64,000 bases of DNA from the human T2T-CHM13v2.0 reference genome, Homo sapiens (GCF_009914755.1 NC_060948.1); one strand, 5' to 3'. Positions 1-64,000 are shown, counted from the first letter of the stretch. Program-made: numbers and translations. The notes: a model not told the origin generated them from the letters alone.

Positions 1-295
1 GTTTTGTTTTTGAGACAGAGTCTTGCTCTGTCACCCAGGCTGGAGTGCAATGGCGTGATCTCGGCTCACTGCAACCTCCACCTCCTGGATTCAAGTGATT
101 CTCCTGCCTCAGCCTCCCGAGTAGCTGGGATTACGGGCACGTACCACCATGCTGAGCTAATTTTTGGATGTGTTTTTACTAGAGAAAGGGTTTCAGCGTG
201 TTGGTCAGGCTGGTCTTGAACTCCTGACCTCATGATCCACCGGCCTCAACCTCTCAACGTGCTGGGATGACAGGCATGAGCCACCGTGCCCAGCC
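1..295 (-). mobile_element. Alu SINE (AluS-like)
   Basis: Reverse-complement Alu consensus (gagacagagtcttgctctgtcacccaggctggagtgca ... gagccaccgtgcccagcc). Confidence 0.95.
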
Positions 296-399
296 TAGAA
301 ATACGTGTTAAAAACCACTGAGAGAACTTGGCCATAAACGTCTGTTGCCTTTGCCGTCTCTGGCCGTGGAATCAGTCCAGCTGGTCAACACAGGGGCAC

Positions 400-527
400 T
401 GGAACCTACCTCTGGGGGAGCTTCTTCAAATATGGCTTGCAGGAGATTCCGGCTCAGCAGATGTAGGTGGAGCCCCCAAATTTGCATTTCTAACTATTGC
501 AGGGACCCCACTTTGAGAATCACTGGT
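400..527. mobile_element. MER5A-like hAT DNA transposon fragment
   Basis: atttgcatttctaac...gggaccccactttgagaatcactg resembles the MER5A end as I recall it. Confidence 0.6.
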
Positions 528-595
528 CAACGTCAACCCTCTCTATAAGCCTCATAAGAGATGGCACAGACTTAGTGCCCAAGACAACAGCATTC

Positions 596-2316
596 TTCCT
601 GTCTATCACATGGGGGATAAGAATGTGGACATGTTTGGGGCCATATTATTCTGTCTCCCACATGGGATTAGGACGTGGACATCTTTGGGGCCATTATCCT
701 GTCTACCTCATGGGGATTAGGACGTGGACATCTTTGGGGACATTATTCTGTCTCCCACATGGGGATTAGGACGTGGACATCTTTGGGGACATTATTCTGT
801 CCCCCACATGGGGATTAGGACGTGGACATCTTTGGGGCCATTATTCTGTCTATCACATGGGGATTAGGACGTGGACATCTTTGGGGACATTATTCTGTCT
901 CCCACATGGGATTAGGACGTGGACATCTTTGGGGCCATTATCCTGTCTACCTCATGGGGATTAGGACGTGGACATCTTTGGGGACATTATTCTGTCTACC
1001 TCATGGGGATTAGGACGTGGACATCTTTGGGGACATTATTCTGTCTATCACATGGGGATTAGGACGTGGACATCTTTGGGGACATTATTCTGTCTATCAC
1101 ATGGGGATTAGGACGTGGACATCTTTGGGGCCATTATTCTGTCTATCACATGGGGATTAGGACGTGGACATCTTTGGGGACATTATTCTGTCTATCACAT
1201 GGGGATTAGGACGTGGACATCTTTGGGGCCATTATCCTGTCTATCACATGGGGATTAGGACGTGGACATCTTTGGGGCCATTATTCTGTCTATCACATGG
1301 GGATTAGGACGTGGACATCTTTGGGGACATTATTCTGTCTATCACATGGGGATTAGGACGTGGACATCTTTGGGGACATTATTCTGTCTATCACATGGGG
1401 ATTAGGACGTGGACATCTTTGGGGACATTATTCTGTCTCCCACATGGGGATTAGGACGTGGACATCTTTGGGGACATTATTCTGTCTATCACATGGGGAT
1501 TAGGACGTGGACATCTTTGGGGACATTATTCTGTCTATCACATGGGGATTAGGACGTGGACATCTTTGGGGACATTATTCTGTCTCCCACATGGGGATTA
1601 GGACGTGGACATCTTTGGGGACATTATTCTGTCTCCCACATGGGGATTAGGACGTGGACATCTTTGGGGCTGTTATTCTGTCTCCCACATGGGGATTAGG
1701 ACGTGGACATCTTTGGGGCCATTATTCTATCACATGGGGATTAGGACGTGGACATCTTTGGGGACATTATTCTGTCTATCACATGGGGATTAGGACGTGG
1801 ACATCTTTGGGGACATTATTCTGTCTCCCACATGGGGATTAGGACGTGGACATCTTTGGGGACATTATTCTGTCTATCACATGGGGATTAGGACGTGGAC
1901 ATCTTTGGGGACATTATTCTGTCTCCCACATGGGGATTAGGATGTGGACATCTTTGGGGACATTATTCTGTCTATCACATGGGGATCAGGACGTGGACAT
2001 CTTTGGGGCCATTATTCTGTCTATCACGGGGATTAGGACGTGGACATCTTTGGGGACATTATTCTGTCTCCCACATGGGGATTAGGACGTGGACATCTTT
2101 GGGGACATTATTCTGTCTATCACATGGGGATTAGGATGTGGACATCTTTGGGGACATTATTCTGTCTATCACATGGGGATTAGGACGTGGACATCTTTGG
2201 GGACATTATTCTGTCTATCACATGGGGATTAGGATGTGGACATCTTTGGGGACATTATTCTGTCTCCCACACGGTGTTACGACGTGAGCATCTTTGGGGT
2301 TGTCTACTGCCCACCA
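596..2316. repeat. 49-bp VNTR (~35 copies) in the last PLCXD1 intron, unit resembles an MLT1 LTR terminus
   Basis: Unit ggggattaggacgtggacatctttggggacattattctgtctatcacat repeated head-to-tail. Confidence 0.95.
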
Positions 2317-2472
2317 CGCTTTATAAGCAAAGCTCACCCAATTTCCTTGTTGGACATGGTGCTTTCAACTCTTAATTCCTGAGATGCGAACCTCTAATAA
2401 TGTGACTAGGAGGGAGAAACAGGCGGGTGAGGCCCGTGACCGTGTAACCTCTCCCCACCCTCACCGTTGCAG

Positions 2473-61000: not shown

Positions 61001-62154
61001 GCCACACGTGCGCTCCCTGAAGGAAGGGAGCACCGCTGCACCGCCCCAGCGCAGGACTCAGGGTCAGCTACCGGCACGGTGAACACCATGACAGGACATG
61101 ACACAGAGGGAGAAATGTCTCTGCAAGGCGAGATTCTGACGAGGGACTCAGAGGCAGAATTTTAAGCATCAGTGAGAAAGAGGCCCGAACACGACCGAGT
61201 GGACATGCACTGCCCTCCGGAGAGGGGTGCACGGTGGCCGTAGACAAGGGGAAGCGCCCAGCACTGGCGCCGGCGAGGGCAGGGTTCACAGGGCATGGAG
61301 AGGTGGCAACAAGAACATGACACGCGCGGCTGAGACAAAAAGGACTGAAGACGCCAGGTCCCGCGAGGCTGCCAGGCAGCTGGGTGTCCTCCGCGTTGCT
61401 GGGGGAACTGGGACGCCACGCAGCTGCCGGGAAAGCGGCCCACGGGGCGGCTGAGCGTAAAGCCCCGTGGCCCGGCCAGGACATCTGTCCTCCCAGAAGC
61501 ACACCAGTGGGAAGAGGGCCCGTGCCCGTGAGAGCCTGCACAGATGGGGACGTCGGCTGCTTGGTTCACGGTGCCCCAGGCGAGAGGAGTCGGACGCCAG
61601 AGCAGGGACTGGAGGAATAAACTGTGGCAGAGTCGTCCTGACAGGTGCAGGGCGGGAGTGACCACGGGGGGGCGTGGGGGACTGCAGAGGGGGCTGCGCG
61701 CCACAGCGGGGATTGCAGTGCTGCTATGGGAAAGGACGCGCTCCGGCTGGCGCACCTGTGGATGACTTGAAGGCAGCCGTGTGCGGCTGGAGGGGCCGGG
61801 CCCCGCAGGACGCACAGGCACGTGCCGGCTCCCGTGATGAGGATCCTGACGGAGCTCAGCCCTGGCCACCTGGAAGGGCGTCCCGGTGCGGTGGGAGGGA
61901 ACGAGCCGGGTGCAGCACCGGGTCCTTGGGCTAGTGCTAGTCCCACGCTTTTGACCTCATGAGACCATTCTGGCTCACAGGCCGTGCAGGTTTCAAACCC
62001 CAAGCGCTCAACACCCAGGGATGGGGGGATGTGTGAGCCTTCACATCTGTGCTCCTCACCGCGTGCAAGACACACCGTCATGACCCGGTGGCAGGGATGG
62101 AGCATCAGATCTATCCAGCCGTGCAGGATATAGCGTCTCATGTGTCCAGACCTG

Positions 62155-62800
62155 CAGGCTGGAGTGCAGTGTGTGATCACAGCGTGATCCATTTTTATTC
62201 TACTTGTTTTTCGAGACACGGTCTTGCTGTTGCCCAGGCTGGAGTGCAGTGTGTGATCACAGCGTGATCCATTTTTATTCTACTTGTTTTTCGAGACACG
62301 GTCTTGCTGTTGCCCAGGCTGGACTGCAGTGTGTGATCACAGCGTGATCCATTTTTATTCTACTTGTTTTTCGAGACACGGTCTTGCTGTTGCCCAGGCT
62401 GGAGTGCAGTGTGTGATCACAGCGTGATCCATTTTTTATTCTACTTGTTTTTCGAGACACGGTCTTGCTGTTGCCCAGGCTGGAGTGCAGTGTGTGATCA
62501 CAGCGTGATCCATTTTTTATTCTACTTGTTTTTCGAGACACGGTCTTGCTGTTGCCCAGGCTGGAGTGCAGTGTGTGATCACAGCTCAGTGCAGTCTCAA
62601 CTTCACGGGCTCAAGCAATCCTCCCACCTTAGCCTCCCAAGTAGCTGGCACCACAGGTGCGCGCTATCATGCCTGGGTAATTTTTTTAATTTCTACAGTG
62701 AAGTCTCACTATGTTGCCGAGGCTGGTCTGGAACCCTTGGCCGCAAGCCATCCTCCCGCCTTGGCCTCTCAAAGTGCTGGGACTACAGGGATGACACTGC
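62155..62800 (-). repeat. 80-81-bp VNTR (~5 copies) derived from the 3' end of an AluJ-like element, plus the rest of that Alu
   Basis: tcgagacacggtcttgctgttgcccaggctggagtgcagtgtgtgatcacagcgtgatccatttttattctacttgtttt at 62211, 62291, 62371, 62452 and 62533. Confidence 0.9.
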
Positions 62801-63327
62801 AACCAGAGACAGCTGCACCCCCGGCGTCTGGGGGATGAGAACTGAGCGGGAGAGTGCTGGGCACACAGTCCCCCCACCACACCAAACCCGAAAATTACCT
62901 CCAAATGAATTAGCTCATAATTTAAAATAATCCTAAAGTAAATGGAGATAATCAACTCTAAAATGCAAAAGATACAAAGGAAAGCAGTTTTACCTGAATG
63001 TCACAAAATCCTTATGGGAAAGGGAATAAAACATCAGATACCCTGATCTGACTTTTAAAAGTCTTTTCGTGATCGACACACAGAAAGACCGACTCCTTGT
63101 GGGGCCCGGCAACGCGGCGGCACGCCCACCCGCACGGCCAGGACAGGGAACGAGGCCGCCAGCCCTGACAGTCCCTTCGGCCCCTCCGCAGTCCGCTACG
63201 GCGACGGCCCCCAGGCCTCCTCCCCGTGGCTCCAGTTCACCTTTTCCAGGACACGGCAACGGGACCCGGCCATCTGCGGACTTTTAGACCTGGCTTCCCT
63301 CGCTCAGCACACGCGTGTGGGACTCAC

Positions 63328-63410
63328 ACACCTTGCTCTGTGTGGATCGTCTGCCCACCTTGCTCTGTGTGGATCGTCTGCCCACCTTGCTCTGTGTGGA
63401 TCGTCTGCCT
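63328..63410. repeat. ~27-bp tandem repeat x3
   Basis: ccttgctctgtgtggatcgtctgccca. Confidence 0.9.
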
Positions 63411-63759
63411 GTGTACTGCTGAACCCTATTCCATTATGGCTCTGCTGACCTCAGAGTAGCTCCCTGAGCAGGAAACACCGCCGGCCCCAAGGCCCACGTG
63501 ATGGTGCTGCTGAGGGGGACTCGCGAGGCAGACAAAGTCCCGAGCGTCTACAGTCGCACAGGGCACGCCGACACCGACCGACAGGTGTGAGAGGAGAAAG
63601 GAGGACGCCACAACCACGGCCGGCAAGTTCAGCACGCGTTCCTCGGCGGGTGACGGGACAAGAGGACGATCTGCAGACACGTAAAGATGTGAAAACGCTG
63701 CCGAGCTATGTGAGCGAGTGACATCGCGGAGCCAGAGGAGTCTTCAGGGTCACATGAAC

Positions 63760-64000
63760 CAGTGGTGGGCTGTGGCTCGGAGCCCCCACCCAAGTCTCAC
63801 GGGGAACTGTGATCCTGAGTGTTGGAGCAGGGCTCTGCTGGGGGGTGACTGGGTGATGAGGGTGGACAGCCCCCTTGCCGGTCTCGTAATCCTGAGTTCT
63901 TGTGAGATCCGATGGTCTAAAAGTGGGTGGCAGTGGCCGGGTGCGGTGGCTCAGGCCTGTCATCCCAGCACTTTGAGACGCCAAGGCGGGTGGATCACCC
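63760..64000 (+). mobile_element. MST-like LTR fragment interrupted by an Alu (from 63934, cut by the window end)
   Basis: cccacccaagtctcac...aactgtgatcc...gagttcttgtgagatccgatggtctaaaagtg, then ggccgggtgcggtggctc. Confidence 0.7.

What the first reader, a model, noticed from the sequence alone, without database searches (positions are those of the whole stretch)
1..64000. The same non-CpG substitution (TGTAATCCC to TGTCATCCC) in most Alus of the window
Seen: by eye about 17 of ~28 Alus carry C in place of the first A of TGTAATCCCAGC in the left arm. It reads gggatgacag on antisense copies (near 265, 3531, 4348, 6220, 8967, 18225, 35717, 38218, 40770, 47958) and cctgtcat on sense copies (near 30786, 35325, 36088, 36431, 40848, 63956; cctgtctt at 2875). 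One Alu has it in both arms (4214). It occurs in Y-like, S-like and monomeric elements on both strands. Known: the Alu consensus is TGTAATCCC, and PAR1 has extreme male recombination. Inference: a transversion shared across subfamilies cannot come from one source element. It points to local Alu-to-Alu gene conversion, a context-specific mutation amplified by GC-biased conversion, or repeated loss of the TAATCC (K50 homeodomain-type) site.
Basis: partly seen in the sequence, partly recalled or inferred. Interest (0 to 1): 0.75.

Follow-up and report, generated by a model that had tools for sequence, protein, structure and literature searches.

The report
One recurrent A-to-C change in PAR1 Alus
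About half of the Alu repeats in the outer half of the human X/Y pseudoautosomal region have independently acquired the same single A-to-C change, which ordinary mutation and ordinary GC-biased gene conversion cannot explain.

Summary
In the window, 17 of 32 Alu left arms read TGTCATCCC in place of TGTAATCCC. In my sample of the distal ~1.25 Mb of PAR1, 74 of 177 left arms (42%) carry C. Where the 5' CTGT_A context is intact, the figure is 69 of 133 (52%). Comparison values are 2 of 23 in proximal PAR1, 0 of 6 just beyond the boundary, and 1.4% of exact 25-mers genome-wide. The carriers are independent loci of Y-, S- and J/FLAM-type. Their state shows no link to subfamily, age, strand or neighbours. 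The change is extremely specific. The adjacent A shows 1 C in 177, G and T at the site stay low, and average W>S transversions in the same Alus are 1.1%. Published singleton rates give this 7-mer an average A>C mutation rate. That rules out a subfamily marker, duplication, plain gBGC and an intrinsic hotspot. A recombination-linked, allele-specific process remains. My leading candidate is very short-tract Alu-to-Alu conversion with GC-biased fixation (0.35). The rivals are PAR1-coupled site-specific mutagenesis and an allele-specific meiotic drive. My literature searches found no description of this. The mechanism is unresolved.

The parts
2..300 (-). Alu, left-arm site = C (S-like)
2853..3144 (+). 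Alu, left-arm site = C (TGTCTTCCC, extra change at +1)
3446..3560 (-). left monomer (FLAM-like), site = C
4091..4381 (-). Alu with C in both arms (left site 4348-4356, right-arm homologue 4214-4222)
5956..6255 (-). Alu, left-arm site = C
8707..9000 (-). Alu, left-arm site = C
17961..18259 (-). Y-like Alu, left-arm site = C
30764..31038 (+). Alu, left-arm site = C (TGTCATTCC)
35300..35426 (+). left monomer (J/FLAM-like), site = C
35447..35751 (-). S-like Alu, left-arm site = C
36063..36360 (+). Alu, left-arm site = C
36409..36701 (+). Y-like Alu, left-arm site = C
37956..38249 (-). S-like Alu, left-arm site = C
40509..40799 (-). Alu (Y-like right arm), left-arm site = C
40823..41103 (+). Alu, left-arm site = C
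47698..47993 (-). Y-like Alu, left-arm site = C
63933..63998 (+). Alu cut by the window end, left-arm site = C
3154..3438 (+). Alu, left-arm site = A
6831..6966 (+). Alu left part, site = A
7185..7480 (+). Alu, site = A
7611..7905 (-). Alu, site = A
9010..9299 (-). Alu, site = A
9304..9441 (-). left monomer, site = A
12121..12406 (-). Alu, site = A (TGCAATCCC: the T just 5' is mutated)
36902..37194 (-). Alu, site = A
37247..37541 (-). Alu, site = A
38397..38670 (-). Alu, site = A (5' TGT mutated)
46493..46789 (+). old Alu, site = A
58946..59238 (+). Alu, site = A
62526..62806 (-). J-like Alu, site = A (the TGTCATCCC at 62788 is a chance match at another position)
4612..4817 (-). old Alu fragment, site = G
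5011..5306 (-). Alu, site = G (TGTGATCCC)

Best explanation
Shown: after insertion, many independent Alu loci in the distal ~1.25 Mb of PAR1 changed the first A of TGTAATCCC (about Alu position 27) to C. This base lies in the CpG-free, highly conserved core of the left arm. The change is confined to the most recombination-intense part of PAR1. It is specific to one base and to one allele.

Inferred, most likely route: very short-tract non-allelic (Alu-to-Alu) gene conversion during meiotic break repair. Heteroduplex would be tolerated only inside the perfectly conserved core, so the only difference transferred is this one. Strong GC-biased fixation in PAR1 makes A-to-C conversions stick and C-to-A conversions fail. 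The C allele would then spread autocatalytically among the local Alu population. Whichever W>S core variant took off first would win, as a 'jackpot'.

This route accounts for several features. Only one allele rose. Young and old Alus carry it equally. Left arms are hit about three times more often than right arms that share the same +-7 bp. Carriers have few private mutations next to the site.
For: Regional and recombination-linked:
- Distal sample: C in 74 of 177 left arms.
- Proximal PAR1: 2 of 23 (Fisher p = 0.001). Y-specific: 0 of 6.
- Hinch 2014 (passages read) reports stronger gBGC in distal than in boundary-proximal PAR1.

Independent loci: 44 C and 53 A copies have unique 5' flanks.

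No age or subfamily dependence: C is 16/31, 14/32, 16/32 and 13/32 across divergence quartiles. Y-type elements are 11 of 20. This fits late autocatalytic growth better than a constant-rate process.

Arm difference: left 74/166 against S-type right 17/103 (p = 1.5e-6). Genome-wide the two arms are similar, 1.4% and 0.96%.

Cleaner flanks in C copies, in matched full-length sets: 2.2% against 5.8% non-CpG differences within +-5 bp (p = 0.003). There is no difference in the right arm.

Not mutation-driven on autosomes: TGT[A>C]ATC singleton rate 0.00162, against 0.00164 for all A>C.

Non-allelic conversion among Alus is documented (Doronina 2021, abstract and passages). The site lies in the 26-bp left-arm core reported to be recombinogenic (PMC1142316 passages).
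Against: - No spatial clustering of C and A states in 258 kb: 70 of 128 adjacent pairs agree against 63.8 expected, P = 0.16. The published Alu-Alu conversion signal is said to act within about 10 kb.
- No significant co-conversion of the nearest CpGs in matched sets.
- The flank effect is one-sided. The 5' CTGT_A gives OR 5.3; the 3' TCCC is not significant. This looks more like a sequence-context or motif requirement than a tract.
- Subfamily-diagnostic columns stay linked, r 0.54-0.81. Tracts would therefore have to be tiny.
- G at the same site is also W>S and has twice the mutational supply, yet it reaches only 8 of 177. The model therefore needs a chance head start for C.
- The required conversion rate, about 5e-7 to 1e-6 per core per generation, is my own rough estimate and was not measured.
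Confidence: 0.35

Rival explanations
1. PAR1-coupled site-specific mutagenesis. A mutational process tied to meiotic break repair, or to the germline chromatin state of distal PAR1, repeatedly turns A into C in the context CTGT[A]A. gBGC then helps each new C to fixation.
For: The pattern is the classic one for a mutational hotspot. It shows one base and one product. It depends strongly on the three bases 5' of the site: each is mutated in 9-11 of 92 A copies against 1 of 74 C copies. It is independent between neighbours, between strands (p = 0.35) and between the two arms of one element (p = 0.77). Right arms with the same local context are also raised, 16% against 0.96% genome-wide. Left-arm C is also over-represented in chr1:0-29 Mb compared with T27, A28C and right-arm C (p = 0.003, 0.016, 1.6e-5).
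Against: Autosomal singleton data give this 7-mer an average A>C rate, half its A>G rate. The process would therefore have to be nearly absent from autosomes. I know of no mechanism that would do this. Left arms exceed right arms about 3-fold despite identical +-7 bp. The flat age profile requires the process to be recent. Predicted hairpin energy is the same for both alleles.
Confidence: 0.25
2. Allele-specific meiotic drive through initiation bias. Alu left arms in distal PAR1 act as weak break-initiation sites. The C allele makes its own chromosome colder, for example by creating a CTGTCA site or by removing one protein contact. Breaks then fall on the A homologue and are repaired from C. 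C is over-transmitted, on top of gBGC.
For: Gain of a motif would explain why only C rises and G or T do not. It would also explain why an intact CTGT_A is needed: C is 69 of 133 when it is intact and 5 of 33 when it is not. Hinch 2014 (passages) estimates that 28% of PRDM9 13-mers in PAR1 are extremely active, against 3% on chr20, with an extreme GC skew within 25 bp of the motif. The Alu's 13-mer-like sequence lies about 20 bp from the site. Altemose 2017 (passages) shows that cis motifs can suppress recombination downstream of PRDM9 binding. My rough estimate of the drive needed (s about 0.6-2e-3) is compatible with a few breaks per male meiosis falling in PAR1 Alus.
Against: There is no association between the C state and an exact 13-mer match (5/74 against 9/92) or the match score. 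The core 13-mer positions show no erosion. Right arms 135 bp away should feel the same drive, yet they are about 3-fold less affected. The flat age profile requires an episodic process. That CTGTCA is a TALE-homeodomain site is recalled from memory and was not verified (one search gave nothing useful).
Confidence: 0.22
3. Ordinary GC-biased gene conversion acting on an ordinary or mildly hot site, with nothing site-specific beyond W>S.
For: A>C is W>S. PAR1 has strong gBGC. CpG retention in Alus is higher distally, 42% against 32%. W>S transitions are 1.37-fold higher distally.
Against: In the same distal Alus, W>S transversions average 1.08% per site, 0.97x the proximal value. The adjacent A>C is 1 of 177, and A>G at the same site is 8 of 177. 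The site needs roughly a 40-100-fold boost where other W>S changes show about 1-4.5-fold.
Confidence: 0.04
4. Subfamily marker, segmental duplication or assembly artefact.
For: None beyond the shared base itself.
Against: Carriers span Y, S and J/FLAM types, and the state is uncorrelated with diagnostic columns. 44 C copies have unique flanks. The X and Y PAR1 copies in this assembly agree at 11 of 11 motif sites over 5 kb, with only 2 SNVs between them.
Confidence: 0.02

Closest known systems
Recombination-associated homogenisation of neighbouring Alus by non-allelic gene conversion (Aleshin & Zhi 2010, known to me only through Doronina et al. 2021, passages read)
   Same: A non-diagnostic mutation is shared among unrelated Alu copies. 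There is a link to recombination. Partial or short conversions are accepted in that literature.
   Different: Here one single base is affected across more than 1 Mb at about 45%. There is no neighbour clustering, no co-converted flanking sites, and subfamily structure is preserved.
GC-biased gene conversion in PAR1 (Hinch et al. 2014, passages read)
   Same: A W>S change. It is strongest in distal PAR1. It lies within about 25 bp of a PRDM9-13-mer-like sequence.
   Different: gBGC acts on all W>S variants. Here only one of the many W sites in the Alu core, and only one of its two S alleles, is raised.
Hotspot-quenching alleles driven by initiation bias, and PRDM9-motif erosion (single-SNP drive at human hotspots; recalled, not read here)
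   Same: A single base change near a break-initiation motif that could be over-transmitted. Strength would scale with local break frequency.
   Different: The change would have to recur at hundreds of dispersed repeat copies. It would have to be specific to one substituted base, without erosion of the 13-mer itself.
Context-dependent germline hypermutable motifs (Carlson et al. 2018, text passages and supplementary table read)
   Same: Single-base, single-product change with strong dependence on adjacent bases.
   Different: The 7-mer TGTAATC has an average A>C rate in autosomal singletons. Any hypermutability would have to be specific to PAR1.

Membership tests
Alu subfamily diagnostic position | Allele co-occurs with the other diagnostic positions of one subfamily and is present in all its members | tested here: not met
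   C is in 11/20 Y-type, 42/97 S-type and 2/7 J/FLAM-type copies. r with five diagnostic columns is -0.05 to 0.08. The subfamily labels rest on diagnostic positions I recalled.
Segmental or tandem duplication of one mutated copy | Carriers share flanking sequence | tested here: not met
   44 C-bearing and 53 A-bearing left arms have unique 5' flanks. I read the flank clusters as Alu-next-to-Alu. Tandem left-monomer runs were dropped from the single-site counts.
GC-biased gene conversion (generic) | All W>S changes raised and S>W lowered in proportion to recombination | tested here: not met
   Distal against proximal Alus: W>S tv 0.97x, W>S ts 1.37x, S>W 0.73-0.86x. The site itself is 41%, against 1.1% for an average W>S transversion.
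Non-allelic Alu-Alu gene conversion | Shared variants cluster among neighbours, decaying over about 10 kb | tested here: not met
   70 of 128 adjacent pairs agree against 63.8 expected (P = 0.16). There is no excess in any distance bin.
Non-allelic Alu-Alu gene conversion | Co-conversion of nearby variable sites, or erasure of private mutations along a tract | tested here: inconclusive
   Erasure-like deficit only within +-5 bp (OR 2.8, p = 0.003) and mainly on the 5' side. The nearest CpGs are not significantly different in matched sets.
Non-allelic Alu-Alu gene conversion | Bidirectional events (C>A as well as A>C) at orthologous loci | not testable with these tools
   No ape or population assemblies were available. 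The X-against-Y comparison covered only 11 sites in 5 kb.
Context-dependent germline mutational hotspot | Raised rate of the same change in rare variants or de novo mutations at that k-mer | tested here: not met
   TGT[A>C]ATC: 2,091 of 1,288,058 = 0.00162, against 0.00164 for all A>C (Carlson 2018 supplementary file 3). These are autosomes only. The two pedigree studies I checked excluded the PARs.
PRDM9-motif erosion / initiation-bias drive | Association with the 13-mer, and loss through any disrupting base | tested here: not met
   Exact 13-mer in 9/92 A copies against 5/74 C copies. Only C accumulates.
PRDM9-motif erosion / initiation-bias drive | Over-transmission of the colder allele from heterozygotes | not testable with these tools
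   This needs pedigree or sperm data for PAR1.

The most novel reading that the evidence does not exclude
Alu left arms serve as dispersed break-initiation sites for the obligatory X-Y crossover. The A>C change is a family-wide hotspot-quenching allele. It creates CTGTCA, which I recall as a TALE-homeodomain core. It would have been driven to about 50% at hundreds of loci by initiation bias plus gBGC. If so, PAR1 is progressively silencing its own repeat-borne initiation sites. An equally unexcluded alternative is an unknown mutagenic step of meiotic repair with single-base specificity.
Probability: 0.2. Interest if true: 0.9.

Novelty: new variant of a known kind. Interest (0 to 1): 0.72.

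Why it matters
PAR1 hosts the obligatory male X-Y crossover, and short-read mutation and variation studies usually exclude it. The two pedigree studies I checked did exclude it. Here one specific transversion has arisen in parallel at roughly half of several hundred independent repeat copies, with a sharp distal-to-proximal contrast. That amounts to a natural, highly replicated experiment on what meiotic recombination does to DNA sequence. Ape T2T assemblies, human pangenome haplotypes and sperm or pedigree sequencing could distinguish ectopic conversion, recombination-coupled mutagenesis and meiotic drive at single-base resolution. There are practical consequences too. Alu-based dating and subfamily calls in PAR1 are biased at this position. 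Models that treat PAR1 evolution as plain gBGC miss a site-specific force some 40-100 times stronger.

Tried and rejected
- Hairpin or quasi-palindrome templating: the DNA minimum free energy of the 32-nt core is identical for A and C (-4.10 kcal/mol), and the site is unpaired. Rejected.
- The same context outside Alus: GT[A/C]AT is not an outlier among 5-mer contexts (z = 0.8). The 7-mer counts are dominated by one tandem repeat at 75.7-76.6 kb of chrY, and there is no outgroup. Uninformative.
- PRDM9 13-mer association: none.
- Strand bias: none, p = 0.35.
- Spatial autocorrelation: none.
- Left/right co-occurrence within an element: none.
- X against Y haplotype comparison: 11 of 11 sites identical, but only 5 kb with 2 SNVs, so little power.
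- Locating the reverse-strand surplus of C-allele 25-mers (1,456 forward, 2,142 reverse) with a two-copy gapped pattern: that pattern form is not accepted for this genome. By my estimate from the listings, chr1 holds only about 130 of the 3,598 hits.
I hold 258 kb contiguous plus ten spaced 10-kb samples.
- Aleshin & Zhi 2010 is not held.
- A literature check on TGIF/MEIS binding to CTGTCA gave nothing usable.

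
Full report
**Observation.** The window holds 17 exact TGTCATCCC and 16 TGTAATCCC; about 1 and 0.4 are expected by chance. I built a profile HMM from 19 full-length Alus of the window itself and aligned every Alu hit to it. 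I left out the Alu-derived tandem arrays at 27.2-31.2 kb and 62.2-62.5 kb. Of the 32 left arms that cover the site, 17 read C, 13 read A and 2 read G. One element (4091-4381) also has C at the homologous right-arm position. The consensus built from the window's own Alus carries C. Ranking all columns shows this is the only non-CpG column with a high minor allele, apart from the columns I recall as subfamily-diagnostic.

**Background frequency.** I searched the whole assembly for the exact 25-mer CCTGT[N]ATCCCAGCACTTTGGGAGG. The counts are A 253,605, C 3,598, G 2,552 and T 1,418. C is therefore 1.4% genome-wide. The window has C 10 against A 5, and the distal 258 kb has C 26 against A 25. The binomial p values are 8e-16 and 1e-34. 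In the first 1.23 Mb of chr1p, which is subtelomeric and Alu-rich, the plus-strand listing shows 100 A and 3 C.

**Regional extent.** I fetched chrY 1-124 kb and 188-258 kb, plus ten spaced 10-kb samples.

Left arms were recognised by the downstream GCACTTTGGGAGG signature (at most 3 mismatches):

| Interval | C / left arms |
|---|---|
| 0-50 kb | 1/9 |
| 50-100 kb | 10/20 |
| 100-150 kb | 17/38 |
| 150-200 kb | 11/19 |
| 200-258 kb | 25/60 |
| 0.5 Mb | 2/12 |
| 0.75 Mb | 2/7 |
| 1.0 Mb | 5/8 |
| 1.25 Mb | 1/4 |
| 1.5 Mb | 0/6 |
| 1.75 Mb | 1/8 |
| 2.0 Mb | 1/7 |
| 2.3 Mb | 0/2 |
| 2.6 Mb (Y-specific) | 0/6 |

Pooled, the distal sample reads A 92, C 74, G 8, T 3 (42% C), and proximal PAR1 reads A 21, C 2 (Fisher p = 0.001). 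The proximal and spaced samples are small. Whether the pattern is a gradient or a step near 1.3-1.5 Mb remains open.

**Not a subfamily marker, a duplication or an artefact.**
- After dropping 14 short tandem runs of left monomers, single sites read A 77, C 61, G 6.
- By crude type, using diagnostic positions I recalled, the counts are Y 11 C / 9 A, S 42 / 52, J/FLAM 2 / 5 and left-only 6 / 11.
- Across quartiles of non-CpG divergence, C is 16/31, 14/32, 16/32 and 13/32. Several of the least diverged Y-type elements carry it.
- Diagnostic columns remain linked to each other (r 0.54-0.81), whereas the site is uncorrelated with them (r -0.05 to 0.08).
- Ninety-seven left arms have unique 5' flanks, 53 A and 44 C.
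- The X copy of PAR1 in the same assembly differs from the Y copy by 2 SNVs over 5 kb. It has the same state at all 11 motif sites.

**Specificity.**
- In the 177 distal left arms, the adjacent A shows 1 C. Other non-CpG core positions show 1-7% change. The site itself shows 74 C but only 8 G and 3 T.
- Over all non-CpG, non-diagnostic Alu columns, W>S transversions average 1.08% per site distally and 1.12% proximally. W>S transitions are 4.76% against 3.49%. Generic gBGC in these same elements is therefore mild.
- The homologous right-arm site, in arms reading TGTAATCCC, is C in 17 against A in 86. That is lower than in left arms (74 against 92; p = 1.5e-6). Genome-wide the right arm is 0.96% C (1,177 against 121,496).
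- C in the left arm and C in the right arm of one element are independent (p = 0.77).
- There is no strand bias (p = 0.35).
- There is no spatial autocorrelation of states in 258 kb: 70 of 128 adjacent pairs agree against 63.8 expected (P = 0.16).

**Context dependence.**
- In matched full-length, non-tandem, non-J sets (50 A, 51 C), C copies have fewer non-CpG differences within +-5 bp, 2.2% against 5.8% (p = 0.003). They show none of that advantage in the right arm.
- The effect sits on the 5' side. Each base of the TGT just before the site is mutated in 9-11 of 92 A copies but in only 1 of 74 C copies.
- Pooled CTGT_A gives OR 5.3 (p = 2e-5). TCCC is not significant, and TTTGGGAGG shows no difference.
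- With CTGT_A intact, 69 of 133 left arms carry C. With it mutated, 5 of 33 do.
- There is no association with an exact PRDM9 13-mer.

**Mutation-rate baseline.** I read rows of Carlson et al. 2018, supplementary file 3:

| Context and change | Singleton rate |
|---|---|
| TGT[A>C]ATC | 0.00162 (2,091 of 1,288,058) |
| A>G, same motif | 0.00327 |
| A>T, same motif | 0.00129 |
| Neighbouring GTA[A>C]TCC | 0.00086 |
| All A>C | 0.00164 |

There is therefore no intrinsic autosomal hotspot here. New mutations arise in the ratio C:G:T = 1:2:0.8. In distal PAR1 the fixed states are 74:8:3. The neighbouring-base 25-mer variant occurs 696 times genome-wide.

On chr1, left-arm C hits are more concentrated in the first 29 Mb than three comparison variants. 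I counted these by hand from the listings, among hits up to 177.4 Mb:
- left-arm C: 57 of 100
- T at the site: 22 of 68
- the neighbouring A>C: 8 of 27
- right-arm C: 22 of 86

A weaker autosomal counterpart may therefore exist. By my estimate from the listings, chr1 holds only about 130 of the 3,598 hits. The C counts are also strand-asymmetric (1,456 forward, 2,142 reverse).

**Reasoning on mechanism (inference).** Relative to autosomal Alus, A>C at this site needs a boost of roughly 40-100-fold in distal PAR1. A>G at the same base shows about 4.5-fold, and average W>S transversions show about 1-fold. Three recombination-linked routes remain.

(a) Very short-tract Alu-to-Alu conversion confined to the conserved core, made directional by gBGC.
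- For: it explains the single winning allele (a jackpot), the flat age profile, the left-over-right excess and the clean flanks.
- Against: it lacks the neighbour clustering and co-conversion expected from the literature.

(b) A PAR1-coupled mutagenic step with CTGT[A]A specificity.
- For: it fits the context dependence and the independence between sites.
- Against: no known mechanism exists, autosomal rates are average, and the arm difference is unexplained.

(c) Allele-specific initiation-bias drive.
- For: gaining a motif (A>C creates CTGTCA) would explain why only C rises and why an intact CTGT_A is needed.
- Against: the 13-mer data do not support it, and it needs strong drive.

I rank these 0.35, 0.25 and 0.22. 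The rate estimates behind these judgements are my own rough calculations, not measurements.

**Literature.**
- Searches for PAR1 + Alu + gene conversion (18 papers, 15 listed, titles and abstract starts seen), for the 12-mer string (5 unrelated papers), and for Alu hypermutability found no description of this substitution.
- Hinch et al. 2014 does not mention Alu at all (0 occurrences). It does report extreme GC skew within 25 bp of the PRDM9 13-mer in PAR1, and stronger gBGC distally (passages).
- Two long-read pedigree studies excluded the PARs from de novo mutation calling (passages).
- Doronina et al. 2021 (abstract and passages) found 98 clear Alu-Alu conversions among 68,097 loci. They cite a range of about 10 kb for neighbour conversion.
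- I could not read Aleshin & Zhi 2010, or Myers 2008/2010. Their supplements might bear on site-specific sharing.

**Limits.**
- There is no outgroup, so the direction (A>C) rests on the Alu consensus and on the genome-wide majority.
- Proximal PAR1 and the 0.26-1.25 Mb stretch are thinly sampled.
- Subfamily labels and the TALE-motif reading are recalled from memory.
- The profile used for alignment was derived from this window.

Noticed in passing
window 27231-30573 (extends to ~31230): A large tandem array with a 140-bp unit (about 21 copies; also scored as 295 bp x 11) at 90-92% identity. Its consensus unit looks Alu-derived, containing Alu-like stretches and a poly-A run. All units read TGTGGTCCCAGC. 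It overlaps the 3' end of LINC00685. It resembles the minisatellite-like arrays that Hinch 2014 reports under PRDM9 peaks in PAR1.
   Followed up: partly
window 62155-62585: An 80-bp tandem repeat, 5.4 copies, 99% identical, whose unit contains the antisense 3' end of an Alu. It lies next to a J-like Alu.
   Followed up: partly
chrY (C24) 119786-120074, 227449-227716, 237419-238071, 508918-509582, 1002392-1002527 (loci L012/L013, L017, L018/L019, L021, L023): Short tandem runs of Alu left monomers, 2-6 units spaced 132-154 bp. States within a run are mostly uniform (CCC; TTCCC; AAAAAG). Possibly products of unequal arm-to-arm exchange.
   Followed up: partly
whole assembly: The C-allele 25-mer is strand-asymmetric genome-wide (1,456 forward, 2,142 reverse), whereas the A, G and T alleles are symmetric. 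By my estimate chr1 holds only about 3.6% of the C hits. This suggests one or more large arrays or amplified segments carrying the C form on the reverse strand. The location is unknown.
   Followed up: no
window 670-2297: This repeat-masked stretch has 96%-identical copies at about 1.00 Mb of PAR1 on both X and Y, and 86-88% copies on contigs 13, 14, 15, 21 and 22, mostly at low coordinates.
   Followed up: no
chr1 (C1) 7676028/7676404 and 41151645/41151934: Two tight same-strand pairs of C-allele left arms (376 and 289 bp apart) among the first 100 chr1 hits. The G and T allele listings contain no pair within 1 kb. This hints at local copying or tandem duplication on autosomes.
   Followed up: no
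distal PAR1 Alus, model columns 143, 150, 221: Three G>C changes at 7-11% in distal PAR1 Alus and 0 of 30-32 in the proximal sample: AATTA[G]CCGGG, CGGGC[G]TGGTG and GAGGC[G]GAGGT. These are minor compared with the main site, but they may be further region-specific variants.
   Followed up: no
chrY (C24) 75697-76636 (locus L008): A tandem repeat of roughly 100 bp whose units share GGGGACAAGGTCATCCTGGATGTTGATTGG. It dominated the non-Alu GTCATCC counts.
   Followed up: no
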